Source: Eledone cirrhosa
Taxonomy: Eukaryota
NCBI GenBank assembly: GCA_964016885.1
Contig: OZ024759.1
Coordinates: 9,238,001-9,302,000 of the forward strand
Length of the DNA stretch: 64,000 nt
Direction of reading: 5' to 3'
Below are positions 1,849-58,179 of the stretch, in pieces; the stretch's first letter is position 1, and the number at the start of each line of letters is the position of its first letter. Under the pieces are notes generated by a model. It saw only the letters and a list, made by a program, of their open reading frames with translations, did no database searches and was not told the origin of the DNA. The translations under genes were made by a program, and so were the position numbers.

Positions 1849-1929
1849 ACACACGCTGATGAACCGAGACTAGACCATTTCTTTCAACAAATTTTCTGGT
1901 GAAACATATCTCTGGATTTGTACGTGTGT
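1849..1929 (+). ncRNA. Type I hammerhead ribozyme
   Basis: Stem I ACACACG/CGUGUGU; CUGAUGA at 1856-1862; stem II ACC...GGU; GAAA at 1901-1904; stem III CAUAUC/GAUUUG; GUA cleavage triplet at 1920-1922. Confidence 0.85.
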
Positions 1930-2091
1930 TATATAGTTATAGAGGTATTTATTTACGCTTTAATTTATATTTTTAATTATCGTGTCTATAGTCTGCCTTT
2001 CAGAGGTTATAGATTCCATACACTGGTGGTTTTTTCCCTGTATTATTGATAACGCACTATATATCTCTCTCTGGTGTGTTACCTTCTCAAC

Positions 2092-2135
<44 letters not shown>

Positions 2136-2236
2136 AATATATATATATTTCTGTGTGTATATATATATACATTTCTCTGTGTGTAATATATATATATATA
2201 TACACACACAGAAATATATATACATTTCTGTGTGTG

Positions 2237-2284
<48 letters not shown>

Positions 2285-2599
2285 CATGTCTTCAGCCTTT
2301 ATAGTGAGTCTGGGCTAGATGTGAAATGAAGGGTTTTGCTCAAGAACACAACACGCAACCCAGGAATCGAACCTACGACATTATGGTCGTAAGTCCAACA
2401 CTCTTGCCTCCACATAGTGGTGGATATAGAGTAAGTTATACCCGCTTCTGGCGTTTCAGTTTGGATCTAGCTGTTGAAATGGTCGGAGCTCAGCCATCAG
2501 CGTCACAAATTTTTCATATTACCCACTCTACTTCCCCAAGTATCAAGTACTCTGGTGAGTAATGGTCTAACTGGCTTTTACTGCCTCCATTCTGATTAT

Positions 2600-3347
2600 A
2601 TATATATATTGTTATACTATTGTTAGTTTTCTGTATGTGTGTGTCTGTGTGTGTGGACAATTTTTAATGAGGGCTCATATATTCTAAATCATTCATGCGA
2701 TTTCTTTGAAATTTTTTACAGAGCTTCTCCTTGCACAAAACCTGTACATGATCTACAAAGGCTATGAAAAATCTATATTGGGGCCTTTGGAGACATTAAA
2801 AAAGTTTCGGTTATTTGTGTGAATTTTCGTGATTAAGTAAGACAAGAGTTATCTTTCGCAATTCGGCTCATTTGGATTTTAATTTACTCTTTGTACTTGA
2901 AACAAAAGTACGCTTCCTTGAGACTAACAATATCATTTTGTATATTTCACAACCAGCAATTTCTAACAGATTACTAAGTTAAGTTATAGATTTGACATTG
3001 TATAATTTATCGTTTCAAGCTTGATGTTCATACATTAAGTGATGTCATAACTTTTACAATATTATGCTTTGTACTTAATAGTGTCTATTATTCACTTCAC
3101 TTCTCTATTTCATGATGCGCTTTTACTGTTGTCAAAAATATTTATACCTAGACTGAATTTCTGTTGTTACATGGTATAACGGATGACACCGAGCTCACAT
3201 ATGAATTATTTCGCTGGAATAGTGCCTAAGGTTTCCATGTTTACATAAAATACGTTTATCTTCTATGTATTCAAATTTACTTTGTTTAATTTAATGAGCT
3301 ACATCGAAAGCTACTTAAACCGTCCAAAGGACTGGTAGTTTAGCTAG
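2600..3347 (+). mobile_element. Helitron-like non-autonomous element
   Basis: Ends in the hairpin CCGTCCaaaGGACtGG followed by CTAG|T. Similar termini at ~12045 (+) and 63538 (-). Confidence 0.5.
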
Positions 3348-4169
3348 TATATATATTTATCATCATTCATCATTTCATTTCATTTTACGTCCGCTTTTTC
3401 CCTGCTTGCAAGGGTGGGACAGGAACTGATTCTGGCTTGATTTCTACAGCTGGATGCGCTTCCTAACACCAACCTCATTTACAGTGAGTGGTGGGTGCTT
3501 TTTTGCCGTGGCACCTCCACGACCACTTTGCAGTGGAATGATACGGACTCCAGTCCCTATCATCTCATTTCTACAGCTGAGTAAACTGGAGCAATGTGAA
3601 ATAAAGTGTCTTGCTCAAGGAAACAACACATCACCCGGTCTGAGAATTGAACTCACAACCTTTCGATTGCAAGTCCAATGCTCTAACCACTGAGCCATGT
3701 GCCTCCATATATAAAATTATATAAATACACGTATGTGTATATATATATATATAAACACTTATACATATAATATATCCCTTCCATACACTGTACCGATTGT
3801 GTTGTTATTTCTGTTTACCTTTTACATACGGGGTCCTAACTCTTTTCCTATTACCCACTCTACTACCCTAAGTATTGAGTACTTTGATGCGTTATGGTCC
3901 ACCTGGTTCCTTACCACAATTCCTTTGTTATATATATACATATATATATATATATACATAGATGAGTGTATAAGCTGCATCTTTTTCTACAAAAATACAT
4001 GTAAACCAATATATGACTTATGAGAGAGAGAGAGAGAGAGGGAGGAGGTAGAGGGGGAGAAAGAGGAGAGTGGGGAGGAGAGGGGCCAGAGGAGAGAGGG
4101 GGAGATGGGAGGAAAGGAAAGTGGAGAGGTCAGAGAGGGGGAGAGGAGAAAGAGAGAGTATGTACTTAC

Positions 4170-4274
4170 AAATGCCAGGTCATCCAAGTTCTGTAAAGTA
4201 ACGTCCTTAACATGACGGTCCAAGAAGATGACATAGGCACTGACCAGCGACGGATCAGTCTCTACACGACAGGC
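4170..4274 (-). CDS. INTS1: INTS1 exon (ACRVETDPSLVSAYVIFLDRHVKDVTLQNLDDLAF)
   Basis: ttcag|GCC acceptor and TTT|gtaagt donor; 105 bp; ETDP..SAY motif. Confidence 0.9.
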
Positions 4275-4292
4275 CTGAAGTGAGGGAGAGAG

Positions 4293-5816
4293 AGAGGTGA
4301 GTGGTAGAGAGAGGTGAGTCAGTGGTAGAGAGAGGTGAGTCAGTGGTAGAGAGTGGTGAGTCAGTAGTAGAGAGAGGTGAGTCAGTGGTGGAGAGAGGTG
4401 AGTCAGTGGTAGAGAGTGGTGAGTCAGTGGTAGAGAGAGGCGAGTCAGTGGTGGAGAGAGGTCAGTCAGTGGTAGAGAGAGGTGAGTCAGTGGTAGCGAG
4501 AGGTCAGTCAGTGGTAGAGAGGTCAGTCAGTGGTAGAGAGAGGTGAGTCAGTGGTAGAGAGTGGTGAGTCAGTGGTAGAGAGTGGTGAGTCAGTGGTAGA
4601 GAGTGGTGAGTCAGTGGTAGAGAGAGGCGAGTCAGTGGTGGAGAGAGGTCAGTCAGTGGTAGAGAGAGGTCAGTCAGTGGTAGAGAGAGGTGAGTCAGTG
4701 GTAGAGAGAGGTCAGTCAGTGGTGGAGAGAGGTCAGTCAGTGGTAGAGAGAGGTGAGTCAGTGGTAGAGAGAGGTGAGTCAGTGGTAGAGAGAGGTGAGT
4801 CAGTGGTAGAGAGTGGTGAGTCAGTGGTAGAGAGAGGTCAGTCAGTGGTAGAGAGAGGTGAGTCAGTGGTAGAGAGGTGAGTCAGTGGTAGAGAGAGAGG
4901 TGAGTCAGTGGTAGAGAGAGGTCAGTCAGTGGTAGAGAGGTCAGTCAGTGGTAGAGAGAGGTGAGTCAGTGGTGGAGAGAGGTCAGTGAGTGGTAGAGAG
5001 AGGTGAGTCAGTGGTAGAGAGTGGTGAGTCAGTGGTAGAGAGAGGCGAGTCAGTGGTAGAGAGGTCAGTCAGTGGTAGAGAGAGGTGAGTCAGTGGTAGA
5101 GAGGTGAGTCAGTGGTAGAGAGGTGAGTCAGTGGTAGAAAGAGGTCAGTCAGTGGTAGAGAGAGGTGAGTCAGTGGTAGAGAGAGGTGAGTCAGTGGTAG
5201 AGAGTGGTCAGTCAGTGGTAGAGAGAGGTGAGTCAGTGGTAGAGAGGTCAGTCAGTGGTAGAGAGAGGTCAGTCAGTGGTAGAGAGAGAGGTGAGTCAGT
5301 GGTAGAGAGAGGTGAGTCAGTGGTGGAGAGAGGTCAGTCAGTGATAGAGAGAGGTGAGTCAGTGGTAGAGAGAGGTGAGTCAGTGGTAGAGAGGTGAGTC
5401 AGTGGTAGAGAGAGAGGTGAGTCAGTGGTAGAGAGAGGTCAGTCAGTGGTAGAGAGGTCAGTCAGTGGTAGAGAGGTCAGTCAATGGTAGAGAGAGGTGT
5501 CAGTGGTAGAGAGAGGTGAGTCAGTGGTAGAGAGAGGTCAGTCAATGGTAGAGAGAGGTGAGTCAGTGGTAGAGAGAGGTCAGTCAATGGTAGAGAGAGG
5601 TGAGTCAGTGGTAGAGAGAGGTCAGTCAGTGGTAGAGAGGTCAGTCAGTGGTAGAGAGAGGTCAGTCAATGGTAGAGAGAGGTGTCAGTGGTAGAGAGAG
5701 GTGAGTCAGTGGTAGAGAGAGGTGAGTCAGTGGTAGAGAGAGGTGAGTCAGTGGTAGAGAGGTCAGTCAGTGGTAGAGAGAGGTGAGTCAGTGGTAGAGA
5801 GAGGTCAGTCAGTGGT
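4293..5816. repeat. ~21-bp minisatellite (GAGAGAGGTGAGTCAGTGGTA)
   Basis: Visible tandem units of 19-23 bp. Confidence 0.97.
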
Positions 5817-5937
5817 GACCATCTATATGCAAGTTATAATCATCTGACCTAACTTGTCTTCGACCATCATGACCTGTCCAACCCATGCTAGCATGGAATT
5901 TGGTAATGAGGATGATGGTGATTATATTGTTGATGGA

Positions 5938-6482
5938 ACACACCACACTACACCACACTATACACCACACTACACCATACACACTACACCACACCACACC
6001 AAACATCACACACCACACCAAACATCACACACCACAACATACCACACCACACTACACCACACACCAAACATCACACACCACACCACACCATACATCACAC
6101 ACTACACCACACCACACTACACCACACCATACCACACCATATATCATACACCACACCACATCACACCATACTACACCACACCACACATCATACACCACAC
6201 CATACCACACACCACACCATACATGACACACCACACCACAACATACCACACCACACACCATACTACACTACACCACACCATACATCGCACACTACACCAC
6301 ACCACACCACACCATACAACACCACACCACATCACACCATACTACACTACACCACACATCATACACCATACTACACCACATCACACCACACCAAACATCA
6401 CACACCACACCATACACCATACCACCCCACACCCCACCCCACCACACCACACCACACCACACCATACACCACACACCACACA
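5938..6482. repeat. (CACCA)n-like degenerate microsatellite
   Basis: Pentamer-based low-complexity tract. Confidence 0.95.
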
Positions 6483-6524
6483 AACAAAAATAAAAACCAC
6501 CAAAGGAGAAGTGTTGCCGCTGAC

Positions 6525-6707
6525 CTTTCGAATTGCATAGCAGGCCCTTGCTGTGAGGGAATCGAAGAGAGGGAGGCTGGGCAAGTAGAGAAGCAGCCAT
6601 TTATGTTGTGGTAGCAACTTGAGGAACTGTTCCTCTTCTTCATCTACTTTGATGGGTTCAATCTCAGACGGGGGAATGTGGGACATTGATACCACAAGGG
6701 ACAGGCC
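6525..6707 (-). CDS. INTS1: INTS1 exon (GLSLVVSMSH...WLLLYLPSLPLFDSLTARACYAIRK)
   Basis: aacag|GGC acceptor and AAG|gtcagc donor; 183 bp; GLSLV and WLL..LP.LPLFDS motifs. Confidence 0.9.
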
Positions 6708-6867
6708 CTGTTAATGAAGACACATGATGCTTTTATTAGATAAATTTAAAAAAAAAAAAACAAAAAAAAAACAAGCAAACAAACAGGCAAATAAATAAAA
6801 TAAAACAAATTTAGCTGAATTTAAACAAATATCGCTTAATTTAACGCTTGAAATAAAAGGAAAAGAG

Positions 6868-6904
6868 TCTTAATGTTTCAGATACTAGTCCTTCATCAGA
6901 AGAT
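6868..6904 (-). ncRNA. Decayed minimal hammerhead motif; same family at 17575-17606 (-) and 17950-17986 (+)
   Basis: UCUU CUGAUGA AGGACUAGUAUCU GAAA CAUU AAGA. The three copies point to a consensus CUGAUGA A GGAC uagc GUCC GAAACGUU with CpG-type decay. Confidence 0.6.
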
Positions 6905-7055
6905 AGAACTCAAAATAAAAGATAAACTAGAAAGAGAAAGAGTGAGAAGAAGAAGGAACGTGAAAAAAGCCGTCCGTATTAGGTGACACACCTCCATTAT
7001 ACTAACTAGTCTTAATTAGAATTAACGAAGCTGGTGTAATGATCAACAATGTTAC

Positions 7056-7205
7056 CTTGATGGCGAGACTTCGACTTGAAGCTTGACTAGATGAGAGTCT
7101 CTTGAAGAAATAATCCATCACTTCAAAAGTGGTGCTGCTGTCACTTGATGGACTGTGAACCAACATTTGTAGTTTAGCCAACAGCTGCTCTTGTTTCTTC
7201 ATTTT
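7056..7205 (-). CDS. INTS1: INTS1 exon (KMKKQEQLLAKLQ...FEVMDYFFKRLSSSQASSRSLAIK)
   Basis: tctag|AAA acceptor and AAG|gtaaca donor; 150 bp. Confidence 0.9.
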
Positions 7206-7324
7206 CTAGACACAGAACAATGGAAATTGTTAAAATATTAAAACTGACATGACTACATACACATATACATATATTAATAAAACATCGGAGGCCATAATCA
7301 GTTGATTCAGGTTTATTTAAAACT

Positions 7325-7382
7325 CCGTTATACATATTTCACTGAGGTCTATCAGTTATGGCAGCCTGAGCTCTTCAGACGG
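7325..7382 (-). ncRNA. Type I minimal hammerhead ribozyme (INTS1 sense strand)
   Basis: Minus strand reads CCGU CUGAAGA GCUCAGG...CCUCAGU GAAA UAUGUA UA ACGG. Stem I CCGU/ACGG; near-palindromic short stem III. Confidence 0.82.
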
Positions 7383-7905
7383 CAAAACCTAAAAAAACTT
7401 GAAAACATTGAAAGTTTCTAAAAAAATCCTTTAAGTTTTGAAAAATCCAATAATTTCCCTGAAAAAGATTTTCTTTTCATGATACAGGGGGCCAGCCGAA
7501 CATGTGGTGTTGTTTCTTCAATGGCTGGCCCTTGTATGGCCCTAAGAATTTTAGTGGAAGTGTTGGTCAGTTCAGGTCCCAAGTCACTATCGCCTGATGT
7601 TTAGTTTAGGAAGTAAGGAAATCAGCTAGTAGCCCTGCCCCCTATCAGTCAGTAGTTGTCACATCTCCCCCCAAGTCCATATTGTCCACAGGTCGACAAC
7701 AGCTGTCGATATTATAACCAATACCAAGAAGTAACTATACAATAAATACATTAAAATACAGAAATAAATTAATTAAAAACAAAAGCAAAGGTTATATTAA
7801 AGGAGATGAATAAGTGGGAGAGAGATAATTATAATGAAAATAAAAAAATAAAGAAATATCTGTCTGTAGGCCTAAGCTATATATAACGTATCTATTATAG
7901 TTTAA

Positions 7906-8327
7906 CCCTTTAGCAATCACATTACTCTATATATACTATTGTATTTTCATGGTAAAAGCTTTACCCCACATAATATCTCATATAACATTTACATTACTCT
8001 ATATATACTATTGTATTTTCATGGTAAAGACTTTATCTCACATAATATCTCGCATAACATTTACATTACTCTATATATACTATTGTATTTTCATGGTAAA
8101 GACTTTATCTCACATAATATCTCACATAACATTTACATTACTCTATATATACTATTGTATTGTCACAGTAAAGGGTTTACTTCACATAATATCTCATATA
8201 ATATCGAATCTATGAGATTTTGAAAGTATTTATTTTGAGAACAATACCATAACATCAGTTTGAGCCAGTTTCAACAGAAAAAGGGAGAGAATTCTGACCG
8301 GTTTAGGCCGGTTTGAACATTGATGGG
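7906..8327 (+). mobile_element. piggyBac-type MITE with an internal 59-bp tandem repeat
   Basis: TTAA|CCCTTT...GGG|TTAA ends. Confidence 0.8.
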
Positions 8328-8339
8328 TTAACTGGTTTG

Positions 8340-10006
8340 AAATAGCTGGAAGCAAGATAACCGTATTCCTTGCTAGTTCCCCGATCAAGCTCAACAGATT
8401 ACATCCAGATGTAAATAGCTGGAAGCAAGATAGCCGTATTCCTCGCTAGTTCCCCGATCAAGCTCAACAGATTACATCCAGATGTAAATAGCTGGAAGCA
8501 AGATAACCGTATTCCTCGCTAGTTCCCCGATCAAGCTCAACAGATTACATCCAGATGTAAATAGCTGGAAGCAAGATAGCCGTATTCCTTGCTAGTTCCC
8601 CGATCAAGCTCAACAGATTACATCCAGATGTAAATAGCTGGAAGCAAGATAGCCGTATTCCTTGCTAGTTCCCCGATCAAGCTCAACAGATTACATCCAG
8701 ATGTAAATAGCTGGAAGCAAGATAGCCGTATTCCTCGCCAGTTCCCCGATCAAGCTCAACAGATTACATCCAGATGTAAATAGCTGGAAGCAAGATAGCC
8801 ATATTCCTCGCTAGTTCCCCGATCAAGCTCAACAGATTACATCCAGATGTAAATAGCTGGAAGCAAGATAGCCGTATTCCTCGCTAGTTCCCCGATCAAG
8901 CTCAACAGATTACATCCAGATGTAAATAGCTGGAAGCAAGATAGCTGTATTCCTCGCTAGTTCCCCAATCAAGCTCAACAGATTACATCCAGATGTAAAT
9001 AGCTGGAAGCAAGATAGCCGTATTCCTTGCTAGTTCCCCGATCAAGCTCAACAGATTACATCCAGATGTAAATAGCTGGAAGCAAGATAGCCGTATTCCT
9101 CGCTAGTTCCCCGATCAAGCTCAACAGATTACATCCAGATGTAAATAGCTGGAAGCAAGATAGCCGTATTCCTTGCTAGTTCCCCGATCAAGCTCAACAG
9201 ATTACATCCAGATGTAAATAGCTGGAAGCAAGATAGCCGTATTCCTCGCTAGTTCCCCAATCAAGCTCAACAGATTACATCCAGATGTAAATAGCTGGAA
9301 GCAAGATAGCCGTATTCCTCGCTAGTTCCCCAATCAAGCTCAACAGATTACATCCAGATGTAAATAGCTGGAAGCAAGATAGCCGTATTCCTCGCTAGTT
9401 CCCCAATCAAGCTCAACAGATTACATCCAGATGTAAATAGCTGGAAGCAAGATAGCCGTATTCCTCGCTAGTTCCCCAATCAAGCTCAACAGATTACATC
9501 CAGATGTAAATAGCTGGAAGCAAGATAGCCGTATTCCTCGCTAGTTCCCCGATCAAGCTCAACAGATTACATCCAGATGTAAATAGCTGGAAGCAAGATA
9601 GCCGTATTCCTCGCTAGTTCCCCAATCAAGCTCAACAGATTACATCCAGATGTAAATAGCTGGAAGCAAGATAGCCGTATTCCTCGCTAGTTCCCCGATC
9701 AAGCTCAACAGATTACATCCAGATGTAAATAGCTGGAAGCAAGATAGCCGTATTCCTCGCTAGTTCCCCAATCAAGCTCAACAGATTACATCCAGATGTA
9801 AATAGCTGGAAGCAAGATAGCCGTATTCCTCGCTAGTTCCCCGATCAAGCTCAACAGATTACATCCAGATGTAAATAGCTGGAAGCAAGATAGCCGTATT
9901 CCTCGCTAGGTCTCAGATCAAGCTCAACAGATTACATCCAGATGTAAATAGCTGGAAGCAAGATAGCCGTATTCCCAATCAAGCTCAACAGATTACATCC
10001 AGATGT
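8340..10006. repeat. 73-bp minisatellite, about 22 copies
   Basis: Unit AAATAGCTGGAAGCAAGATAGCC...TTACATCCAGATGT. Confidence 0.97.
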
Positions 10007-10544
10007 CACATTCCTCGTCTTCCGGGGACTCAAGTACTCAATCAGTGGAACATTAAAGTGAAATTTTACGATATATAAAGGGAATGTCCAGGAGGGGGTT
10101 AGACAGTAGGATTGTTCCCTGTTGTTTGTATGAAATATCCGTGAAACCGATCAAGGTCTCTGGGCCAACATGCCTGACTGGTAAGGAACTATTAGGTGGT
10201 TCCTTTACCAATTAAACAGTGTAGGCTAATCTAAGGTAAGTTAAAGTGATGATCAAAGTAAGGCATGTGAAGAAGAATTAGAAATAAATGAAAATACAGT
10301 AAAGTAGGTTTAGTCTGACTTAAGATAACTTAAAGGAAATAGCAGAGTGAGACTCATGAGGATGAATAAGAGATAAATTAAAGTTAGAGTTAATTTGGGT
10401 TGGCAGGCAGTCGAAGAGAAAAAGGGAAAAAGTATGGTATGCAACAATATATGGGATAACGAGATACGGGGGTAGAGAAAGAAAATAAGTACATATAATA
10501 AAGGCAATATAGCTATTAAGTGGTCAAACTGGTGGACTAATAGT

Positions 10545-11898
10545 AACTTATTAAACTGTTAAATAACAGAATACACTGTTATATTACCTTAGATATAACT
10601 TATTAAACTGTTAAATAACAGAACACACTGTTATATAACCTTAGATATAACTTATTAAACTGTTAAATAACAGAATACACTGTTATATTACCTTAGATAT
10701 AACTCATTAAACTGTTAAATAACAGAATACACTGTTATATAACCTTAGATATAACTTATTAAACTGTTAAATAACAGAATACACTGTTATATAACCTTAG
10801 ATATAACTTATTAAACTGTTAAATAACAGAATACACTGTTATATAACCTTAGATATAACTTATTAAACTGTTAAATAACAGAATACACTGTTATATAACC
10901 TTAGATATAACTTATTAAACTGTTAAATAACAGAATACACTGTTATATAACCTTAGATATAACTTATTAAACTGTTAAATAACAGAATACACTGTTATAT
11001 AACCTTAGATATAACTTATTAAACTGTTAAATAACAGAATACACTGTTATATAACCTTAGATATAACTTATTAAACTGTTAAATAACAGAATACACTGTT
11101 ATATAACCTTAGATATAACTCATTAAACTGTTAAATAACAGAATACACTGTTATATAACCTTAGATATAACTTATTAAACTGTTAAATAACAGAATACAC
11201 TGTTATATAACCTTAGATATAACTTATTAAACTGTTAAATAACAGAATACACTGTTATATAACCTTAGATATAACTTATTAAACTGTTAAATAACAGAAT
11301 ACACTGTTATATAACCTTAGATATAACTTATTAAACTGTTAAATAACAGAACACACTGTTATATAACCTTAGATATAACTTATTAAACTGTTAAATAACA
11401 GAATACACTGTTATATTACCTTAGATATAACTCATTAAACTGTTAAATAACAGAATACACTGTTATATAACCTTAGATATAACTTATTAAACTGTTAAAT
11501 AACAGAATACACTGTTATATAACCTTAGATATAACTTATTAAACTGTTAAATAACAGAATACACTGTTATATAACCTTAGATATAACTTATTAAACTGTT
11601 AAATAACAGAACACACTTATATAACCTTAGAAATAACTTATTAAACTGTTAAATAACAGAATACAGTTATATAACCTTAGATATAACTGATTAAACTGTT
11701 AAATAACAGAATACACTGTTATATAACCTTAGATATAACTTATTAAACTGTTAAATAACAGAACACACTTATATAACCTTAGAAATAACTTATTAAACTG
11801 TTAAATAACAGAATACAGTTATATAACCTTAGATATAACTGATTAAACTGTTAAATAACAGAATACACTGTTATATAACCTTAGATATAACTTATTAA
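10545..11898. repeat. 52-bp AT-rich minisatellite, about 26 copies
   Basis: Unit AACTTATTAAACTGTTAAATAACAGAATACACTGTTATATAACCTTAGATAT. Confidence 0.97.
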
Positions 11899-12100
11899 GA
11901 ACAGAGTGTCAGGTGCTCAGCTTTTTTACAAAATAAAATTGACTCTTTGCCATTTTCACATATCTGTGTACTTCGGAAAAGATGGGTTAGGGCTGAAGCT
12001 TTGAGAAGGAAAATTATGAGAACTTATTTCACACGGGCCAACTAGTATTAATAATATGGAGCAGGAATGAAGTATCAATATAACATCATTATGTTTATTT

Positions 12101-12192
12101 ACACGTGACATGTGTTTCATGATCGATCAGCTCTAGGTACGATCCAGTAGTGATCATGCCCAACTCTGGAATTGATAGCTCATCAGACATAT
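12101..12192 (-). ncRNA. Hammerhead ribozyme with long stem II, partly decayed
   Basis: Minus strand reads AUAUGU CUGAUGA [~65-nt imperfect hairpin] GAAA CACAUG UC ACGUGU. GUC triplet present; the base of stem II is mismatched. Confidence 0.6.
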
Positions 12193-12224
12193 ATATATAT
12201 ATATATATATACACATACATGCAC

Positions 12225-13274: not shown

Positions 13275-13278
<4 letters not shown>
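12225..13278 (+). mobile_element. RTE LINE 3' fragment with an internal 47/49-bp tandem expansion
   Basis: Similar to 22590-23067; (GAT)n tail; about 13 units at 12485-13117. Confidence 0.85.
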
Positions 13279-46800: not shown

Positions 46801-46951
46801 CTTTAGTGTGAAAGAAATGGACTCGACAGACTGTGATAAATAAACGGGATACGTTGTGAGTGAGTTTGAAAGTCTGTTACACCTGAGATAAAGTTGTTAG
46901 GGTCCCCGAATGGTAGGAAATATAAGGGAGAAGATTGTAAAAGGGATTTAC

Positions 46952-47109
46952 CTTCGAGGCGAATCATAGCGGCCCTCTTGATTAACTGGTCAGCTAACTC
47001 TACAGCATCGGCTGAACTGAGGGACAGCTCTCGAGACAAGCCAATCACCAGCACACGCATCAACGTATCTTCTAGGACTGGAACTTCTGATGCAATACGT
47101 AGCATTAAA
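46952..47109 (-). CDS. INTS1: INTS1 exon (LMLRIASEVPVLEDTLMRVLVIGLSREL...KRAAMIRLE)
   Basis: actag|T acceptor and G|gtaaat donor; 158 bp; SEVPxLEDTLMRxLVIGLSREL motif. Confidence 0.93.
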
Positions 47110-47112
47110 CTA

Positions 47113-48630: not shown

Positions 48631-48778
48631 TGTATGAATAGAATGGTATATAGATGAATCTCTACGTAAGTCTGGTCAGACTTTGGTGAGGTGTGTATAT
48701 ATATGTATGTATGTATGTTAGTGTATCATCATCATCATTGTTTAGCGTCTATTGTCCACGTTAGCATGGGTTAGACGG

Positions 48779-48823
<45 letters not shown>

Positions 48824-49267
48824 AAGGCGTATGGCTTAGTGGTTAGAGTATTGGGCTTGCAATCGAAAGGTTGTGAGTTCAATTCTCAGACCGGGTGATG
48901 TGTTGTTTCCTTGAGCAAGACACTTTATTTCACATTGCTCCAGTTTACTCAGCTGTAGAAATGAGATGATAGGGACTGGGGTCCCTATCATTCCACTGCA
49001 AAGTGGTCGTGGAGGTGCCACAGCAAAAAAACACCCAGCACTCACTGTAAAGTGGACGTGGAGGTGCCACGGCAAAACAGCACCCAGCACTCACTGTAAA
49101 TGAGGTTGGTGTTAGGAAGGGCATCCAGCTGTAGAAATCAAGCCAGAATCAGTTCCTGTATGAGCAAGACAAGGTCAGCCGACCGGACACTGCCCACAAC
49201 AGGACAACCCGTCTAACCCATGCTAGCGTGGAAGAACGGACGTAAAACAGTGATGATGATGATGATG
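48824..49267 (+). mobile_element. tRNA-derived SINE with a CORE-like body and RTE-derived tail
   Basis: A box TGGCTTAGTGG, B box GAGTTCAATTC, CCTTGAGCAAGACACTT core, tail shared with the RTE 3' UTR, (GAT)n. Other copies: 867-1228 (-), 3361-3707 (-), 18123-18300 (-), 40663-41110 (-), 57180-57518 (-), 63187-63527 (+). Confidence 0.88.
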
Positions 49268-49684
49268 TAAGTGTAGTCTCAACTTATGTCTGGTCAGATT
49301 CTGGTGGAGTGTGTATGTCGATGAAGTGAATCCCCTGTTCAATCATAGAATGCCACAAACTTACGTATTACATAAGTGGGAGTGATGATGTCGGATTCAT
49401 AGAAACATATCGGACGTATTGCAGAATATCGTTTGATCTGTCCAGGTCTGTTGTCTAACCTGATTAGTTCTTTTGTTGTTTTGGTACTGTATGGCTGGGC
49501 TTTGCCTGCCGCAATTTTCAATTTGTCAAGCTATCTAAAAGTATGTTATTACTCAAAGGACCTACCCTTATTGAGTGCTTTGCTACTCATTCCTTATTGT
49601 AGGTCGACTTTGTTTGGCCGCAGCCAAAGCTTCGATTTTACTTAACTTCCACTTGTATATATATATATATATATTATATATATA

Positions 49685-50195
49685 TCATCATCACCATCAT
49701 TTTACGTCCGCTTTTCCCTGCTTGCAAGGGTGGGACGGGTCTTATTCAGCACAGCATCTCTCCACCCGTCACGGTCCTTCTTCATCTCCACCGTGAGCTT
49801 CAATGATCTGAGGTCTGCTCTCACCACCTCCACCCATGTTTTTCGTGGTCTACCTCTACCATGTCTTCCTTCAACTGGCATTTCCTGGCACTTCTTCACC
49901 CATCGGTCATCCTCCATGCGCATCACATGTCCATACCACCTCAGTCTCCTCTCCCGCCGTACACTACATTCTATTCCTCTCAGACACAGTTTCTCTCTCA
50001 ACACATTTATGCTGGGTCGTTCACGCACATTTACACTGCACATCCAACGGAGCATGCTTGCCTCATTTCTCTCCAGCCGTCGCATATCCTCTGCAGTTGC
50101 TGCCCATGTCTCACTACCATGCTGCATCGCGCTCCTCACACAGGCATCATACAACCGGCCTTTCGTACGCAGGGAGAAACCCTTCTTCGTCAACA
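49685..50195 (-). mobile_element. RTE LINE 3' fragment
   Basis: KGRLYDACVRSAMQHGSETW...RLRWYGHVMRM...GRPRKTW with a GAT tail. Confidence 0.9.
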
Positions 50196-50200
50196 CACAC

Positions 50201-50232
<32 letters not shown>

Positions 50233-50289
50233 ATTATATATAAATGTGTATGTATATAAATGTGTGTATGTATGTATGTATGTATGTTA

Positions 50290-50680
50290 TCTCAGTTGAA
50301 AATGGTGTCAAGCAGGGTGATATACCTGCACCAACTTTGTTTGCCTTGTATTTCACAATGGCGTTCTTCATGGCCTTCAAGGGTTGTCAACACGGTATCT
50401 ATCTCAGATATCGCACTTCCGGCAAGCTGTTCAACCCCAGGCGTCTCACTGCCAACACTAAGGTACTGAGTACCTTCATCAGAGAATTTCTGTGTGCAGA
50501 TGATTGCGATCTCTTTGAACACTCTCAGAATGACATGCAACACCTTATGGATTCTTTTTCCAATGCATGCAGTGCTTTGGGACTGACAGTCAGTCTGAAG
50601 AAGAGTGTCGTCGTGTACCAACCTGCTCTTGATAAAGTTTTCAATGGACCCTCTATATATGTATACGGTCAAAAGCTGAA
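50290..50680 (+). mobile_element. RTE/BovB-like reverse transcriptase fragment
   Basis: NGVKQGDIPAPTLFALYF...YLRYRTSGKLFN...LCADDC. Confidence 0.85.
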
Positions 50681-50842
50681 GGTAGCCCTGCCCACTTTAC
50701 CATTATACCAAAACACATTAAAACAGAAACAGACCCCATAAAGTTCAAGAAGTCTTTGGACAAATTCCTTCAAGAAATCCCAGATGAACCTCCTACAAAC
50801 GGATATGCCAATACTGGGCGAAAGTTATCAAAGTTATGTGTT

Positions 50843-52203
50843 AGTGTATATATAGAGGTGTATATGTAGAGGTGTGTATATATAGAGGTGTGTATATATA
50901 GAGATGTGTATATATATATAGAGGTGTATATATATTTAGAGGTGTGTATATATAGAGGTGTGTATATATAGAGGTGTGTATATATAGAGGTGTGTATATA
51001 TAGAGGTGTATATATAGAGGTGTGTATATATAGAGGTGTGTGTATATATAGAGGTGTATATATATATATATGTGTAATATAGAGGTGTATGTATATATAG
51101 GTGTGTATATATATATAGATGTGTATATATAGAGGTGTATGTGTATATATAGAGGTGTATATATATATATATATATATATGTGTATATATAGAGGTGTAT
51201 ATATATATATATAGAGGTGTATGTATATAGAGGTGCGTATATATATATAGATGTGTATATATATAGAGGTGTGTATATATATATAGAGGTGTATATATAT
51301 ATATATATAGAGGTGTATATATAGAGGTGTGTATATATAGAGGTGTATATATAGAGGTGTGTATATATAGAGGTGTATATATAGAGGTGTGTATATATAG
51401 AGATGTGTATATATAGAGGTGTATATACATAGAGGTGTATATACATATAGAGGTGTATATATAGAGAGGTGTATATATAGAGGTGTGTATATATAGAGGT
51501 GTATATATATATAGAGGTGTATATATAGAGGTGTGTGTATATATAGAGGTGTATATATATATATGTGTAATATAGAGGTGTATGTATATATAGGCGTGTA
51601 TATATATATAGATGTGTATATATAGAGGTGTATGTGTATATATAAAGGTGTATATATATATATATATATGTGTATATATAGGTGTATATATATATATAGA
51701 GGTGTATGTATATAGAGGTGTGTATATATATAGATGTGTATATATATAGAGGTGTGTATATATATAGAGGTGTGTATATATATATAGAGGTGTATATATA
51801 TATATAGAGGTGTATATATAGAGGTGTGTATATATAGAGGTGTATATATAGAGGTGTGTATATATAGAGGTGTATATATAGAGATGTGTATATATAGAGG
51901 TGTATATATATATAGAGGTGTATATATAGAGGTGTATATATAGAGGTGTATATATAGAGGTGTATATATAGAGATGTGTATATATAGAGGTGTATATATA
52001 TATATATGTGTATATATATATATATATAGAGTTGTATATATAGAGGTGTATATATATATAGAGGTGTATATATAGAGGTGTATATATAGAGGTGTATATA
52101 TAGAGGTGTATATATAGAGATGTGTATATATAGAGGTGTATATATATATAGAGGTGTATATATATATATATGTGTATATATATATGTGTATATATAGAGG
52201 TAT
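50843..52203. repeat. (TATATAGAGGTG)n-like repeat
   Basis: Variable-length units of about 14-22 bp. Confidence 0.96.
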
Positions 52204-52213
52204 CTCTACTTAC

Positions 52214-52291
52214 GTCCTGTCAGACTCAGGTGGCCAGTTGTCTTTGTTGTGATAATGTTCTGTACTTTCCATAAACAGGACTTTGTGTAAA
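52214..52291 (-). CDS. INTS1: INTS1 exon (CLHKVLFMESTEHYHNKDNWPPESDR)
   Basis: ttgcag|T acceptor and AC|gtaagt donor; 78 bp; LHKVLF...DNWPPESDR motif. Confidence 0.93.
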
Positions 52292-52329
52292 CTGCAATCA
52301 AAATAACATCTCTTTAATTGAGAAACAGA

Positions 52330-53020
52330 TCCAGCCTGGCCACACTGCCCCAGCCTGGCCACACTACCCCAGCATGGTCACACTGCCTCAATATGGCCAC
52401 ACTGCCCCAGCCTGGCCACACTACCCCAGCATGGTCACACTGCCTCAATATGGCCACACTGCCACAGCATGGTCAGTGCCTCAATATGGCCACACTGCCC
52501 CAGCATGGCCACAGTGCCTCAATATGGCCACACTGCCCCAGCATGGTCACACTGCCTCAATATGGCCACACTGCCACAGCATGGTCAGTGCCTCAATATG
52601 GCCACAGTGCCTCAATATGGCGACAGTGCCCCAGCCTGGCCCACACTGCCCCAGCCTGGCCACACTGCCCCAGCATGGTCACACTGCCCTAGCATGGTCA
52701 CACTGCCTCAATATGGCCACACTGCCCCAGCATGGTCACACTGCCCCAGCCTAGCCACACTGCCCTAGCATGGTCACAGTGCCTCAATATGGCCACACTG
52801 CCCCAGCATGGTCACACTGCCTCAATATGGTCACACTGCCTCAATATGGCCACACTGCCCCAGCATGGTCACACTGCCTCAATATGGCCACACTTCCTCA
52901 ATATGGCCACACTTCCTCAGCATGGCCACACTGCCTCAATATGGCCATACTGCCCCAGCATGGCCACACTGCCTCAATATGGCCACACTGCCCCAGCATG
53001 GCCACAGTGCCCCAACATGA
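52330..53020. repeat. 19-bp-based compound minisatellite
   Basis: Unit variants ATGGCCACACTGCCCCAGC and ATGGTCACACTGCCTCAAT. Confidence 0.95.
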
Positions 53021-53059
53021 CTGCAACAACAACAGCATTAACCTATTGTAACTATGTAT

Positions 53060-54613
53060 TAGTCAGTCTCTTCTTCATACCGTGAGCAGAGAAAATCCAA
53101 CTTTCTTATGGCCTAGGGCCCGCATTAGGTGAAAAACTTCCTTTTTTCAGCTTTTTTGAGGCGTTACGTCTAGCTAATTTTCATCTTCTTGATCTCCTAG
53201 GGCCCGCATTAGGTGAAAAACTTCATTTTTTCAAATTTTTAGGGCTTTTTTGAGGCGTTAAATCTAGCCGATTTTCATCTTCTTGATCCCCTAGGGCCCG
53301 CATTAGGTGAAAAACTTCATTTTTTCAGCTTTTTAGGGCTTTTTTGAGGCGTTACGTCTAGCCGATTTTCATCTTCTTGATTCCTTAGGGCCCGCATTAG
53401 GTGAAAAACTTCATTTTTTCAGCTTTTTGGGGCTTTTTTGAGGCGTTACGTCTAGCTAATTTTCATCTTCTTGATCCCCTAGGGCCCGCATTAGGTGAAA
53501 ACCTGCATTTTTTCAGCTTTTTAGGGCTTTTTTGAGGCGTTACGTCTAGCCGATTTTCATCTTCTTGATCCCTTAGGGTCCGCATTAGGTGAAAAACTTC
53601 ATTTTTTCAGATTTTTGGGGCTTTTTTGAGGCGTTACGTCTAGCCGATTTTCATCTTCTTGATCCCCTAGGGCCCGCATTAGGTGAAAAACTTCATTTTT
53701 TCAGCTTTTTGGGGCTTTTTTGAGGCGTTACGTCTAGCCGATTTTCATCTTCTTGATCCCCTAGGGCCCACATTAGGTGAAAAACTTCATTTTTTCAAAT
53801 TTTTAGGGCTTTTTTGAGGCGTTAAATCTAGCCGATTTTCATCTTCTTGATCCCCTAGGGCCCACATTAGGTGAAAAACTTCATTTTTTCAGCTTTTTGG
53901 GGCTTTTTTGAGGCGTTACGTCTAGCCGATTTTCATCTTCTTGATCCCTTAGGGTCCGCATTAGGTGAAAAACTTCATTTTTTCAGCTTTTTGGGGCTTT
54001 TTTGAGGCGTTACGTCTAGCCGATTTTCATCTTCTTGATCCCCTAGGGCCCGCATTAGGTGAAAAACTTCATTTTTTCAGCTTTTTGGGGCTTTTTTGAG
54101 GCGTTACGTCTAGCCGATTTTCATCTTCTTGATCCCCTAGGGCCCACATTAGGTGAAAAACTTCATTTTTTCAAATTTTTAGGGCTTTTTTGAGGCGTTA
54201 AATCTAGCCGATTTTCATCTTCTTGATCCCCTAGGGCCCACATTAGGTGAAAAACTTCATTTTTTCAGCTTTTTGGGCTTTTTTGAGGCGTTACGTCTAG
54301 CCGATTTTCATCTTCTTGATTCCTTAGGGCCCGCATTAGGTGAAAAACTTCATTTTTTCAGCTTTTTGGGGCTTTTTTGAGGCGTTACGTCTAGCTAATT
54401 TTCATCTTCTTGATCCCCTAGGGCCCGCATTAGGTGAAAACCTGCATTTTTCCTGCTTCATCGAGGAAAATCTTAAAGATTATCCAGCCATCAGAGTATT
54501 CGGTTTATTTTCTTTACATATTGTCCAGGCATGCAGTTTTTCCACGATTAGGTCTGTTGGCGACCCGCCTTCCAAAATACCTTATCCCGTGCAACGACGG
54601 GTACCACTGCTAG
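53060..54613 (+). mobile_element. Helitron-like non-autonomous element carrying a 94-bp tandem array
   Basis: 3' hairpin CCCGTgcaacgACGGG followed by CTAG|T at about 54587-54614; about 14 x 94-bp units at 53111-54450; the 5' boundary is uncertain. Confidence 0.6.
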
Positions 54614-54635
54614 TAGTTGATAAACAGTAACTTAC

Positions 54636-54756
54636 CAATGGACATACTCGTGTGGTTTCATCTCAACTATACTTGGTACGACTGTGTGAAGCCACCATAC
54701 GCTGTCCCGTTGAATGAGGGTCACTTGTTGCTGATATTGGTGTAAAATATCCAAGT
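54636..54756 (-). CDS. INTS1: INTS1 exon (DLDILHQYQQQVTLIQRDSVWWLHTVVPSIVEMKPHEYVH)
   Basis: tctag|AC acceptor and TG|gtaagt donor; 121 bp; carries the IQRDxVWWLHTVVPSI motif of INTS1. Confidence 0.93.
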
Positions 54757-55419
54757 CTAGAAATAAAGACAGAAAGACATAACCTCCAAAATATCAATGT
54801 TAACATCAACAATAATATAAAATATCCAAGTGGTGCTATTAAGTTAGACATGGCCTGGGCCAATACTGGCCGAAACCTATCAAAGTTCTATCTATATATA
54901 TTATAGACGAGAAACCGTATCACGTATACACCTTCAGTCTCTCTTCTTTTCTTATAATATTGAAACTCTGTCTGGTACCATATAGGTAATACCCTATGGT
55001 ACCCATGTTGTGGAGTGCTTATGTCTGATTACACAACAGTTGGTCAATTGCTTGAATCAACCAACACTGATTACATGGAATTCATCATCATCATCACCGT
55101 TTTACGTCCGTTCTTCCATGCTAGCATGGGTTAGACGGGTTGTCCTGTTGTGGGCAGTGTCCGGTCGTCTGACCATGCCTTGCTCATACAGGAACTGATT
55201 TTGGCTTGATTTCTACAGCTGGATGCCCTTCCTAACACCAACCTCATTTACAGTGAGTACTGGGTGCTTTTTTGCTGTGGCACCTCCACGACCACTTTAC
55301 AGTGAGTGCTGGGTGCTTTTTCCGTGGCGCCTACACGTCCACTTTACAGTGTGGGCTGGATGCTTTTTTTGCCGTGGCACCTCCACGAGCACCTTGCAGT
55401 GGGAGGGTGTGGGGGCATA

Positions 55420-55735
55420 TTGTCTATATGCTTTAGCTTGTACCCATGGGAGGTCGGGTACCCTGTATTACTGTGTGACGCCAGAGGTCACGGTCGTGTG
55501 TCATCGCCTTTGAGAGGTGTAATTGGGTAAGGTCGGCTTTTATCACCTCATCCCAGGTCTTCTTGGGTCTCCCCACTCCGCGGTTTCCATTGACTTCTAG
55601 TGCTCTGCACCTTTTTATGCAGCTGTCATCCTTCATACGCATCACATGTCCATACCAACGCAACCGCCTCTCCTGCATACAGCATTTGATTCCTCTTATG
55701 CTCAGTCTCTCTCTCAATTCATTTATGCTTTGTCG
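55420..55735 (-). mobile_element. RTE LINE fragment, continuing into the RTE/SINE tail at 55082-55420
   Basis: IRGIKCCMQERRLRWYGHVMRM...GRPKKTWDEVI. Confidence 0.85.
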
Positions 55736-55774
55736 TGGAATTATGTATATATATATATATATTGTCGTGGACTT

Positions 55775-56367
55775 ATCATCATCATCAACGTTTAACGTCC
55801 GTGTTCCACGCTTGCATGGGTTTGGACGGGGGTAGTCCCACTTGAGGCAAGAGTGATTGTCTTGCTCGCATAGGACTGTCTGGCAGGTTTTCTACAGTTG
55901 GATGCCCTTCCTAACACCAACCACATTTACAGTGTGGGTCTGGGAGGTTTTTACCGTGTTGCCTACACGGCCACATTACAGCGTGGACTGTGTGTTTTTT
56001 TTGTCGTGACACCTACACGATCTCATTTGTTTCGGCCTGGATGGCGCGGCACCAACATAACTTTACATAGAACGGGGTGGTGTGGATGGGGTGGGGGTGA
56101 TGGTGGTGGGACGGGGTGTATTTTGTTAGAGATGCCTACTGGCTGTAGTAGGTTTTACTATATATTTAGGTAAGGCGGGTCTTCTCTGTTACTGAGTACC
56201 GCCAAAGGTCTCGGTCCAGTGACATTGTCTTGGAGAGGTGTAAGTGTGTGAGGTCGGAGTTTATCAGCTCGTCCCAGGTTTTTCTAGGTCTGCCTATTCC
56301 GTGGCTACCGTCTATCTTTATTGCCCTGCACTTTGTTATACAGCTATCGACTTTCATGCGCATCACG
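55775..56367 (-). mobile_element. Young 5'-truncated RTE copy
   Basis: Encodes the same peptide as the C-terminus of the 19521-23067 element; flanked by a GACTTAT duplication. Confidence 0.9.
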
Positions 56368-56656
56368 ACTTATGTATATATATATATATATATATATATT
56401 GTCGTGGAATTATGTATATATATATATATATATATTGTAAAGAGTTAGTGCCCGATGGCTGAGCTCATTACAATACCTACACTCTACTTTTCCAGGTATT
56501 GAGTACTTAGATGAACAATGGGCTTATTAGTCAAAACGGGTAACTCCCAATCTATCTATTTATATGTGTGTGAGTCCCAGGTTCAATCGAGGGTAACCAC
56601 AGCAAGTAAGGTACTCAGTACATTAGTAGAGTGTAAACAATAAATTTAATATATCA

Positions 56657-56707
56657 GGCTTTCCTGATGATTCCTATGAATGAAACAGTTCTAGTCCTGT
56701 AGAAGCC
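56657..56707 (+). ncRNA. Type I hammerhead ribozyme
   Basis: GGCUUUC CUGAUGA UUC cuau GAA U GAAA CAG...CUG UA GAAGCC. One-nt irregularity at the base of stem II. Confidence 0.72.
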
Positions 56708-57887
56708 ATTTCTTACAACTTTACTAACCTTTATGATTACCACATAGTAAATATAACTTTACTATGTTCAATGCAATATATATATGATGATGATGATGAT
56801 CACACCGTCTAACCCATGCTAGCGTGGAAGAACGGACGTAAAACGGTGATGATGATGATGAAGATAGATTGCTAGCATGGAAGATGGACGTTAAACGATA
56901 ATGATGATGATGATGATATAGTGTGTATGTGTGTGTGCTTAGAAAATCTTGAACACAGGAAAATATGTGAGAAGAGATCTTGAGAAAATCAGGTAAAATA
57001 TCTCAATAGAGAGAAAATCTAGCCACCAGCTGCTATAGAATTGGTTTCCCTATACCAGCTGATGGCTACTTCTTCCGTCTATACAGATGTTTTACCTGAC
57101 CTTTTTTGTTCAGTTTGCTCCATTCAAGATTTTCTAAGCATTTCATTCACTCGACGCTTCAATGCTTATTTAACATGTATCATCATCATCATCATTTTAC
57201 GTCCGCTTTTCCCTGCTTGCAAGGGTGGGACGGGAACTGATACTGGCTTGATTTCTACAGCTGGATGCCCTTCCTAACACCAACCTCATTTACAGTGAGT
57301 GCTGGGTGCTTTTTTGCCGTGGTACCTCCACGACCACTTTGCAGTGGAATGATAGGGACCTCAGTCCCTATCATCTCATTTCTACAGCTGAGTAAACTGG
57401 AGCAATGTGAAATAAAGTCTCTTGCTCAAGGAAACAACACATCACCCGGTCTGAGAATTGAACTCACAACCTTTCGATTGCAAGGCCAATGCTCTAACCA
57501 CTAAGCCATATGCCTCCATATGTATATATATATATATACATATATATGTATAGACAGCCGATGAACATTCTTCAAATCGGACCAAGGAAACAATGTTTCC
57601 GTTGGTTTTTCCAATTGCCAATACTATCTATCAGTTGCAGTTCCAGATAGAAGGAGCAATGTGAAATAAAGTGTCTTGCGCAAGGACATAACGCATCGCC
57701 CAGGTCCAGGAATCGACCTCACAACCTCATGATATAATTCGAGTATGTGTTGATTAATTACCAACACTTCAGTATGCATGGTAGAGCACTTGACAAAGTG
57801 CACAGATGGGTCTCTTTACTCTGGAATATATTTAAAAACAAGAAGTGTAAGTCAACAAGTTAAAATAAACTTTGTTTATTCATAGTC

Positions 57888-57946
57888 ACTGTTATATATA
57901 TTTCGGTGATAACCATTATTCAACAGCTATGACCTCATCAGACAGC
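57888..57946 (-). ncRNA. Type I minimal hammerhead ribozyme (INTS1 sense strand; left arm of inverted repeat)
   Basis: Reverse complement of the 58121-58179 motif, differing only in the stem II loop. Confidence 0.83.
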
Positions 57947-58120
57947 AAGAATTTTAACAGAAAAACATAATGATGGAACAAAGTTTACCTCCGTTATTTC
58001 GACTTTTTGATATGCTCCGGGCTGAAGTTTGTTGTTTTCTCAGGGCACCAGTAGCATACACTACTGGTGCCCTGAGAAAACAACACGTTATGTTTTTCTT
58101 TTTATTCTGTTCAAATTCTT

Positions 58121-58179
58121 GCTGTCTGATGAGGTCATAGCTGTTGCATAATGGTTATCACCGAAATATATATAACAGT
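58121..58179 (+). ncRNA. Type I minimal hammerhead ribozyme (right arm of inverted repeat)
   Basis: GCUGU CUGAUGA GGUCAUAGCUGUU gcau AAUGGUUAUCACC GAAA UAUAUA UA ACAGU. Palindromic stem III. Confidence 0.83.

What the first reader, a model, noticed from the sequence alone, without database searches (positions are those of the whole stretch)
1849..58179. Thirteen hammerhead ribozyme motifs from about nine families inside the introns of one gene
Seen: CUGANGA...GAAA...NUH cores with pairable stems at 1849(+), 7325(-), 12101(-), 13764(+), 15177(+), 56657(+), 57888(-) and 58121(+), plus decayed copies at 6868(-), 17575(-), 17950(+), 18796(-) and 19282(+). The stems differ between families while the core and pairing are kept, which argues against chance. 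All lie in 200-700 bp AT-rich non-coding segments, mostly next to (TA)n tracts and often with an inverted copy of their own end. Known: Penelope-like element pLTRs and retrozymes carry minimal type I hammerheads with short palindromic stem III that cleave as dimers. Inference: this genome holds a diverse population of non-autonomous ribozyme-bearing retroelements (about 1 per 5 kb here), and no convincing PLE ORF is present in the window.
Basis: partly seen in the sequence, partly recalled or inferred. Interest (0 to 1): 0.82.

Follow-up and report, generated by a model that had tools for sequence, protein, structure and literature searches.

The report
Penelope retroelement ends carrying hammerhead ribozymes
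The thirteen self-cutting-RNA motifs in these introns are real and mark leftover ends of Penelope-type jumping genes and two small non-coding repeats that likely borrow their enzyme; this is a known kind of system, here at an estimated quarter of a million intact-looking copies per genome.

Summary
All 13 motifs are type I hammerheads in introns of INTS1. They come from 9 families and 10 insertions. Six pass a strict descriptor (0 in 40 shuffles), two carry the known U3-A8 core, and five are decayed.

The reading 'non-autonomous' holds only in part:
- Six sites (E, H x3, I x2) are truncated 3' pseudo-LTRs of coding Penelope-like elements found elsewhere in the genome. E's parent has an unbroken 916-aa Hydra-type ORF.
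- Two sites (A, 541 nt; D, about 460-470 nt) are tandem non-coding retrozymes.
- Five sites have no parent found.

The window is typical: 36 intact-looking hammerheads in 400 kb sampled (0 in shuffles), about 270,000 genome-wide, more than any count in the papers read.

In family A, 38 of 38 inverted insertions have exactly one tail-bearing arm. Arms and units of one locus always share a haplotype (34 of 34 pairs, against 26% between loci). This points to a Penelope enzyme priming both target strands on one RNA, possibly a circle (inferred). Cleavage and circles are untested.

The class is published, and this scan noted similar elements on other DNA. Verdict: new member of a known kind.

The parts
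1706..2096 (+). Family A retrozyme copy: inverted tail-bearing arm 1706-1750 plus forward arm 1748-2096, between (TA)n tracts; hammerhead 1849-1929, 7-bp stems I and III (one mismatch in III), predicted cut after 1922
7270..7530 (-). Family B element (outer limits approximate); hammerhead 7325-7382, palindromic stem III, sense to INTS1
6836..6908 (-). Family H pLTR fragment (Neptune-type parent); decayed minimal hammerhead, core at 6899, inside the spliced intron 6707-7054
12040..12190 (-). Family C element; long-stem-II hammerhead (core 12186) with a damaged stem II base; 5' end at a (TA)n tract
13435..14025 (+). Family D retrozyme copy (about 1.2 units plus a short inverted arm); hammerhead 13764-13845 with 53-nt stem II region and palindromic stem III
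14687..15497 (+). Family E: 3' end of a Hydra-type PLE (95% to L201); forward arm 14687-15351 with hammerhead 15177-15225 (Rfam RF00163), (TA)n, inverted tail-bearing arm 15403-15497
17521..18086 (.). Family H head-to-head pair (cores 17603- and 17954+), both with damaged GAAA box; 87% to the 3' UTR of a Neptune-type PLE (L160)
18647..19435 (.). Family I fold-back: two arms of the pLTR of a Neptune-type PLE (L078); U3-A8 hammerheads at 18839- and 19288+
56550..56713 (+). Family F stub: inverted tail arm joined to a decayed hammerhead (core 56664)
57755..58241 (.). Family G fold-back; hammerheads at 57941- (tail-bearing arm) and 58126+ with palindromic stem III
17037..17290 (.). Additional PLE end (family K), a fold-back truncated before its hammerhead; 95-96% to the 3' end of a coding PLE (L307, L308)
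2426..2574 (+). Additional hammerhead half (family J): GAAA, long stem III and tail, without the CUGANGA half; a J tail also lies at 3845-3935
1..62869 (-). Host gene INTS1 (Integrator subunit 1), about 16 exon matches from 62869 down to about 100

Best explanation
[quoted passage not shown] Shown: E, H and I continue upstream into coding PLEs elsewhere in the genome; A and D are circularly permuted ORF-less units with the same fold-back, tail and (TA)n footprint. Inferred mechanism: the PLE protein nicks both strands of an AT-rich target and primes reverse transcription at two fixed internal sites of one RNA, 92 nt apart in A. This gives two 5'-truncated arms, one with the tail and one without, joined head to head. 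Multi-unit arms come from a re-ligated circle or an uncut homogeneous multimer. Most copies are dead stubs; the short palindromic stem III types would cut mainly as dimers (inferred from the literature).
For: Coding parents. E: a 4,862-bp unit between two hammerheads with an unbroken 916-aa ORF bearing DKT, RWR, CxCX5C, CxxC and CxH, the Hydra features of PMC8557442. H: L160 runs from a GIY-YIG C-terminus through about 560 bp of UTR into the H hammerhead. I: inverted and direct pLTRs flank a GIY-YIG ORF in L078. PF01541 gives 10,597 first-look candidates; 150 of 150 scored passed the cut-off. Family A: 541-nt tandem unit, arms up to 2,359 nt. 38 of 38 inverted loci (of 58 loci) have exactly one arm ending at unit position 92-93; 33 partners end at 538-541; none is tail/tail. 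The same rule holds in 11 of 11 F and 14 of 16 J fold-backs; the other 2 had no tail detected. Subfamily sites are identical in 15 of 15 inverted-arm pairs and 19 of 19 tandem-unit pairs, against 853 of 3,327 pairs between loci. 74 of 76 A hammerheads keep the core. Covariation: 13 of 15 pairs change on both sides across 12 related hammerheads (rows mostly pre-selected by the descriptor). U3-A8 double change 21 hits, single changes 0 and 2. PAc in vitro nicks and extends both strands, and its tail lies between two RT start sites (PMC11167929).
Against: No cleavage, circle or protein-RNA interaction was tested. No coding partner sharing sequence with A or D was found. Only 3 of 99 A arms end within 367-370, at the predicted cut; this is no clear fossil of cleavage. 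84 of 169 A segments span the cut site, so templates were uncut or re-ligated. The minimum-energy fold of isolated motifs is not the hammerhead for A, B, C, F or I, and z-scores are weak (-1.9 to +0.2). PAc's hammerhead is not needed for insertion in vitro, and 8 of 9 Xenopus retrozyme dimers did not cleave. Shared haplotypes within a locus could also come from later gene conversion. The window's E copy is arranged tail to tail across a TA tract, not head to head, which the model explains less simply.
Confidence: 0.82

Rival explanations
1. All nine families are self-standing non-autonomous SINE-like ribozyme elements, each with its own fixed 5' end.
For: 5' ends cluster in several families: F 16 of 28 within -8..+2 of the core, G 13 of 27 at -136..-99, H 9 of 27 at -109..-90, C 9 of 16 at -32..-10. 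No parent ORF was found for B, C, F or G.
Against: E, H and I run into coding PLEs. H has clustered ends and a coding parent, so clustering does not prove independence. F, G, B and H copies extend 250-900 bp further upstream. The F cluster lies about 30 nt downstream of a TATA-like box, as expected for stubs copied from the 5' end of a pLTR-initiated transcript (inference).
Confidence: 0.1
2. Tandem A and D arrays arise as satellites by local duplication or unequal crossing-over of an inserted pLTR, not by reverse transcription of a circle or multimer (the amplification route discussed in Li et al. 2026).
For: Units within an array are identical at subfamily sites, which local duplication also gives. 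Li et al. propose this route.
Against: Arrays are dispersed over many chromosomes, end at the same two unit positions against (TA)n, start at scattered positions, and carry inverted 5' arms. A local duplication would not reset both ends to the RT-start positions.
Confidence: 0.05
3. The intronic hammerheads are host-domesticated regulators of INTS1 (co-transcriptional cleavage or splicing control).
For: Six motifs lie in the sense orientation of an essential gene; B and one G arm pass the strict descriptor.
Against: The density in the window equals that of 40 unselected stretches. Each copy is an ordinary member of a family with many copies, and several are decayed. The three motifs with a longer, non-palindromic stem III (A, E, F) are antisense. 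The intron holding one H copy is spliced normally.
Confidence: 0.03

Closest known systems
Minimal hammerheads in pLTRs of Penelope-like elements (Cervera & de la Pena 2014, PMC4209133; section 5 and passages read)
   Same: Type I fold, short or palindromic helix III, long helix II, mostly single dispersed copies from truncated PLEs, opposite-strand pairs 100-700 bp apart, U3-A8 core variant.
   Different: Counts there are about 2,000 plus 1,300 (Schistosoma), 4,000 (coelacanth) and 9,000 (Xenopus); here about 270,000 is estimated with another descriptor. Several families here have 40-65-nt stem II regions, and A has a 7-bp stem III. The word 'mollus' does not occur in that paper's main text.
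Metazoan non-LTR retrozymes (Cervera & de la Pena 2020, PMC7229834, results and discussion read; Li, Clavereau & Pollet 2026, bioRxiv 10.64898/2026.07.22.740005, abstract to discussion read)
   Same: A and D are ORF-less, AT-rich tandem units with one type I hammerhead per unit; PLEs are the proposed helper.
   Different: Units (541 and about 460-470 nt) are longer than the 170-400 nt of the 2020 paper, though within Li's 51-972 bp range. Here the PLE link rests on insertion footprints (tail rule, inverted arms, TA target), not on pLTR phylogeny. Circles and cleavage are not shown.
Hydra, Neptune and Penelope/Poseidon clades of EN+ PLEs (Craig et al. 2021, PMC8557442; passages, section 11 and a supplement search)
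   Same: pLTRs, partial tandems, inverted 5'-truncated copies, tail on one end only, (TA)n targeting. E's parent has the Hydra motifs; Hydra-1_Obim of Octopus bimaculoides is already in File S1.
   Different: E's unit is 4.86 kb with a long 3' UTR, against under 3 kb for typical Hydra elements. Tails here are about 80-100 nt in A, D and J, against 30-40 bp.
Poseidon of Anolis carolinensis, PAc (Frangieh et al. 2024, PMC11167929; part 2 and passages read)
   Same: Two internal RT start sites that bound the tail, AT-rich nicking, extension of both strands.
   Different: PAc was studied in vitro on its own RNA; it does not show that the two sites are used one per strand, nor use of a non-coding circle.

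Membership tests
Type I hammerhead ribozyme | Core CUGANGA, GAAA, NUH (or covariant U3-A8) | tested here: met
   11 of 13 keep the core letters (9 C3-G8, 2 U3-A8); the H copies at 17603 and 17954 have a damaged GAAA box
Type I hammerhead ribozyme | Three pairable stems with open stem I and covariation | tested here: met
   6 strict hits against 0 in 40 shuffles; 13 of 15 pairs with two-sided change in an alignment mostly pre-selected for pairing
Type I hammerhead ribozyme | Self-cleavage at NUH | not testable with these tools
   No assay; genomic 5' ends at the cut site inconclusive, 3 of 99 arms
EN+ Penelope-like element (parents of E, H, I) | ORF with RT and C-terminal GIY-YIG upstream of the pLTR | tested here: met
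   E: 916-aa ORF (no Pfam hit itself, but 807 homologues, the best carrying PF01541). I: PF01541 in L078. H: GIY-YIG C-terminus with stops in L160
EN+ Penelope-like element (parents of E, H, I) | Partial tandem or inverted pLTRs with hammerhead, tail on one end, microsatellite target | tested here: met
   L201, L202 and L078 structures; window fold-backs
EN+ Penelope-like element (parents of B, C, F, G) | Coding parent upstream of the pLTR | tested here: inconclusive
   None in the loci extended by 8-10 kb; only a few dozen copies per family were seen
Hydra clade (parent of E) | DKT, RWK-like motif, CxCX5C linker, CxxC and CxH around the EN, (TA)n target | tested here: met
   DKT, RWR (not RWK), CNCRVSANC, CNLC and CPH read by eye in the L201 ORF against section 11 of PMC8557442
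Hydra clade (parent of E) | Placement in an RT phylogeny | not tested
   No named reference PLE proteins were loaded for a tree
Non-LTR retrozyme (A, D) | Non-coding tandem unit with a type I hammerhead in each unit | tested here: met
   A: 541 nt, up to 4.4 units, 74 of 76 cores intact. D: 459-473 nt spacing. No PLE protein match
Non-LTR retrozyme (A, D) | Expressed as linear and circular monomers | tested here: inconclusive
   A sequence lies in contigs of run X4, which shows a spliced INTS1 joint; contigs cannot show strand, ends or circularity

The most novel reading that the evidence does not exclude
This genome carries the largest hammerhead load yet counted (about 270,000 intact-looking motifs from at least 16 families), and its young 541-nt retrozyme records how Penelope enzymes insert: one protein dimer primes the two nicked target strands at two fixed sites of a single circular RNA, which is why every fold-back has exactly one tail and one haplotype.
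Probability: 0.4. Interest if true: 0.68.

Novelty: new member of a known kind. Interest (0 to 1): 0.45.

Why it matters
Hammerheads in PLE ends and animal retrozymes are published, so the class is not new. Two points add value. First, the scale: a sampled estimate of about 90 intact-looking ribozymes per Mb, many inside introns, whereas a 2026 repeat annotation of Octopus vulgaris does not use the words ribozyme or hammerhead in its main text. Second, family A is young (0.56% from the column majority), abundant and has exact ends, and an unbroken Hydra-type ORF and long Neptune-type ORFs lie in the same genome. That gives ready substrates to test two open questions: whether PLE proteins mobilise retrozyme RNA, and how PLE inverted repeats and one-sided tails form.

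Tried and rejected
- Rfam detects only family E, so it cannot be used to count these motifs. Its many microRNA hits in the window are (TA)n tracts and fold-backs.
- A relaxed descriptor adds noise (46 hits against 1-7 in shuffles; one extra weak window hit at 25220, not accepted).
- A fossil of in vivo cleavage was sought in family A 5' ends: 3 of 99 arms at 367-370 and 3 at 375, where a TA microhomology can explain it; inconclusive.
- An apparent ORF next to C copies (L142, L143) matched a LINE with zf-RVT, not a PLE; rejected.
- ORFs near G (L205, L073) and F (L307, L308) have their own, different hammerheads or 3' ends; not accepted as parents.
- No sequence shared between A or D and a coding PLE beyond a nested A tail in L033.
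- The look-up of sequencing runs: no RNA holder listed. Summed contig depths were not used as copy number or expression level.
- The organism could not be fixed. INTS1 hits are invertebrates including bivalves and gastropods, the E-parent's named hits include Solemya and Argonauta, and the LINE search gave no informative names. 'Octopod' rests on these and on earlier unchecked notes.
- Paper searches: hammerhead ribozyme + Penelope + octopus gave only Craig 2021. Self-cleaving ribozymes + cephalopod gave no dedicated paper. Penelope + twin priming + inverted + retrotransposon gave two unrelated listings. C3U/G8A terms gave none. Subscription papers and Repbase were not searched.
Full report
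Setting. The window is G000:C20:9,238,001-9,302,000 of a 3.0-Gb animal genome. It spans about 16 exon matches of INTS1 on the minus strand. A contig of run X4 joins 6706 to 7055 across canonical intron ends and covers only exons, which confirms one intron and shows that X4 behaves as an RNA run. The host is probably a mollusc and likely an octopod; this was not established here.

Observation. All 13 sites hold a type I hammerhead at the stated places. My strict descriptor (CUGANGA, GAAA, NUH, three stems) finds six: 1856+, 7378-, 13769+, 15183+, 57941- and 58126+. It finds none in 40 shuffles that keep local dinucleotide content. Rfam sees only 15183 (31.7 bits), though relatives of it pass the 34-bit cut-off elsewhere in the genome (18 matches among 74 scored). 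C (12186-) and F (56664+) keep the core but have lost stem II pairs. The H copy at 6899 keeps the core but has lost pairs in stems II and III; those at 17603 and 17954 have a damaged GAAA box.

The I pair reads UUGAAAA. Across all DNA held, the descriptor gives 21 hits for the double change U3-A8 (two are repeats of the window's own pair), 0 for U3 alone and 2 for A8 alone. U3-A8 is a published, active covariant (PMC3088659, passages) already seen in PLEs (PMC4209133, section 5), so these two are not merely decayed. An alignment of 12 related hammerheads with a TATATA-type stem III shows two-sided changes in 13 of 15 pairs; most rows were picked by the descriptor, so this leans towards pairing. 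Isolated motifs fold only weakly better than shuffles, and five of nine have a non-hammerhead minimum-energy fold.

Density. In 40 stretches of 10 kb taken at round coordinates on 25 large contigs, the strict descriptor gives 36 hits, and 0 in five shuffled sets. That is 1 per 11 kb, the same as the window, and about 270,000 for the genome (Poisson 189,000-373,000; bootstrap over stretches 165,000-389,000). The sample was not length-weighted, and U3-A8 and decayed motifs are left out. Clustering 212 hits from 1.2 Mb then held gave 39 groups, 16 of them present in the unselected sample. Published counts I read are 126,247 in axolotl, over 6,000 in coral and about 5,000 in mussel (PMC7229834), and 2,000-9,000 minimal motifs in Schistosoma, coelacanth and Xenopus. 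These used other descriptors, so the comparison is rough.

What the families are. The genome is rich in PLEs: PF01541 gave 10,597 first-look candidates, with RT plus GIY-YIG ORFs of up to 938 and 1,096 codons. E is the 3' end of a 4,862-bp unit bounded by two hammerheads, holding an unbroken 916-aa ORF (L201); the window copy is 95% identical. The ORF has the Hydra motifs listed in PMC8557442. It has no Pfam hit itself but 807 homologues, and an octopus Hydra family is in that paper's File S1. I is the pLTR that flanks a GIY-YIG ORF in both orientations in L078. H continues upstream, without a break, into a GIY-YIG C-terminus with a CxxxxCxxC linker in L160.

A is a 541-nt ORF-less unit in tandem and D a 459-473-nt one; neither matches a PLE protein. 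For B, C, F and G I followed the longest copies 8-10 kb and found no own ORF. Their 5' ends cluster near the ribozyme. In F the cluster lies about 30 nt behind a TATA-like box, which fits stubs copied from the 5' end of pLTR-initiated transcripts; RT stalling at stem I would give the same picture. So six of 13 sites are ends of coding PLEs, two are retrozymes and five are unresolved. Two more PLE-end families, J and K, lie in the window.

How family A was inserted. I mapped 58 distinct loci (70 ids, 12 dropped as overlapping duplicates). Copies differ by 0.56% from the column majority, and 74 of 76 hammerheads keep the core. 3' ends fall at two unit positions, 541 and 92 of the next unit, mostly against (TA)n; 5' ends are scattered. 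All 38 inverted loci have exactly one arm ending at 92-93; the partner ends at 538-541 in 33 and elsewhere in 5. F (11 of 11) and J (14 of 16) follow the same rule. Either arm can be the longer at its 5' side, which a simple fold-back of one cDNA would not give. At eight subfamily sites, 15 of 15 inverted-arm pairs and 19 of 19 tandem-unit pairs within a locus are identical, against 853 of 3,327 pairs between loci. Arms reach 2,359 nt, and 84 of 169 segments span the cut site.

PAc nicks and extends both strands, is predicted to be a dimer, and its tail is the stretch between two RT start sites (PMC11167929). I infer that both nicked strands prime on one RNA, one at each site, and that long arms come from a circle or a homogeneous multimer. 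Gene conversion between arms and multimeric linear templates are not excluded. Only 3 of 99 arms end at the cut site, so cleavage has left no clear trace. In run X4 one A haplotype forms contigs of depth 104-134, and its marker at L098:364 is rare in run X1 (182 of 36,010 summed depth). This shows presence in one RNA-type sample and hints at a single transcribed source. It says nothing on strand, ends or circularity.

Relation to what is known. Minimal hammerheads in PLE pLTRs, dispersed single copies, opposite-strand pairs and U3-A8 are in PMC4209133. Tails, inverted truncated copies and (TA)n targeting are in PMC8557442. Tandem retrozymes with PLEs as the likely helper are in PMC7229834 and PMC7761336 (passages). 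My searches found no paper on hammerheads in cephalopods, and the O. vulgaris repeat annotation PMC13282606 lacks the words (passage search). PMC6155905, PMC8490949 and PMC2377424 were read as passages only. Supplements of PMC4209133 and PMC7229834 were not read and may list mollusc motifs. Earlier notes of this scan report similar retrozymes and PLE ends in this and other genomes; none matched family A by sequence.

Verdict. It is a new member of a known kind. Its value lies in the scale and in a young, exactly bounded retrozyme that makes the helper question and the paired-priming model testable.

Noticed in passing
window 2426-2574, 3845-3935; L168, L170, L188: Family J: very abundant fold-backs truncated inside stem II, lacking the CUGANGA half; 19 arms in the 400-kb sample. 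The few longer copies have a non-standard core.
   Followed up: partly
window 17037-17290: Perfect palindrome scored by Rfam as a microRNA precursor; it is a fold-back of the 3' end of a coding PLE (family K, L307 and L308).
   Followed up: yes
window 7263-7720 and L271 (G000:C20:8.85 Mb): The B copy with its flank is duplicated at 98.5% identity about 400 kb away on the same contig, next to a 92% match to window 39001-39456.
   Followed up: no
window about 25500-38000: About 12.5 kb of very even composition (GC 0.45-0.46) inside an INTS1 intron, probably one long tandem array.
   Followed up: no
window 19560-22665: Near-complete LINE with AP endonuclease and RT (736-aa open stretch, then frameshifts); many shorter copies in the window.
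   Followed up: partly
L060:7200-7700, L171, L173, L183, L078:1542: Further hammerhead families with 45-65-nt stem II regions and 6-10-nt palindromic stem III; one is a 459-bp tandem. Rfam misses those of this type in the window.
   Followed up: partly
window A, E, F (plus strand) versus B, G, H, I, C (minus strand): The three motifs with a longer non-palindromic stem III, which could cut as monomers, are all antisense to INTS1; too few to test an orientation bias.
   Followed up: no
L098:227-767 laid with run X5: A second organism (coded B) holds near-identical pieces of family A at low contig depth.
   Followed up: no
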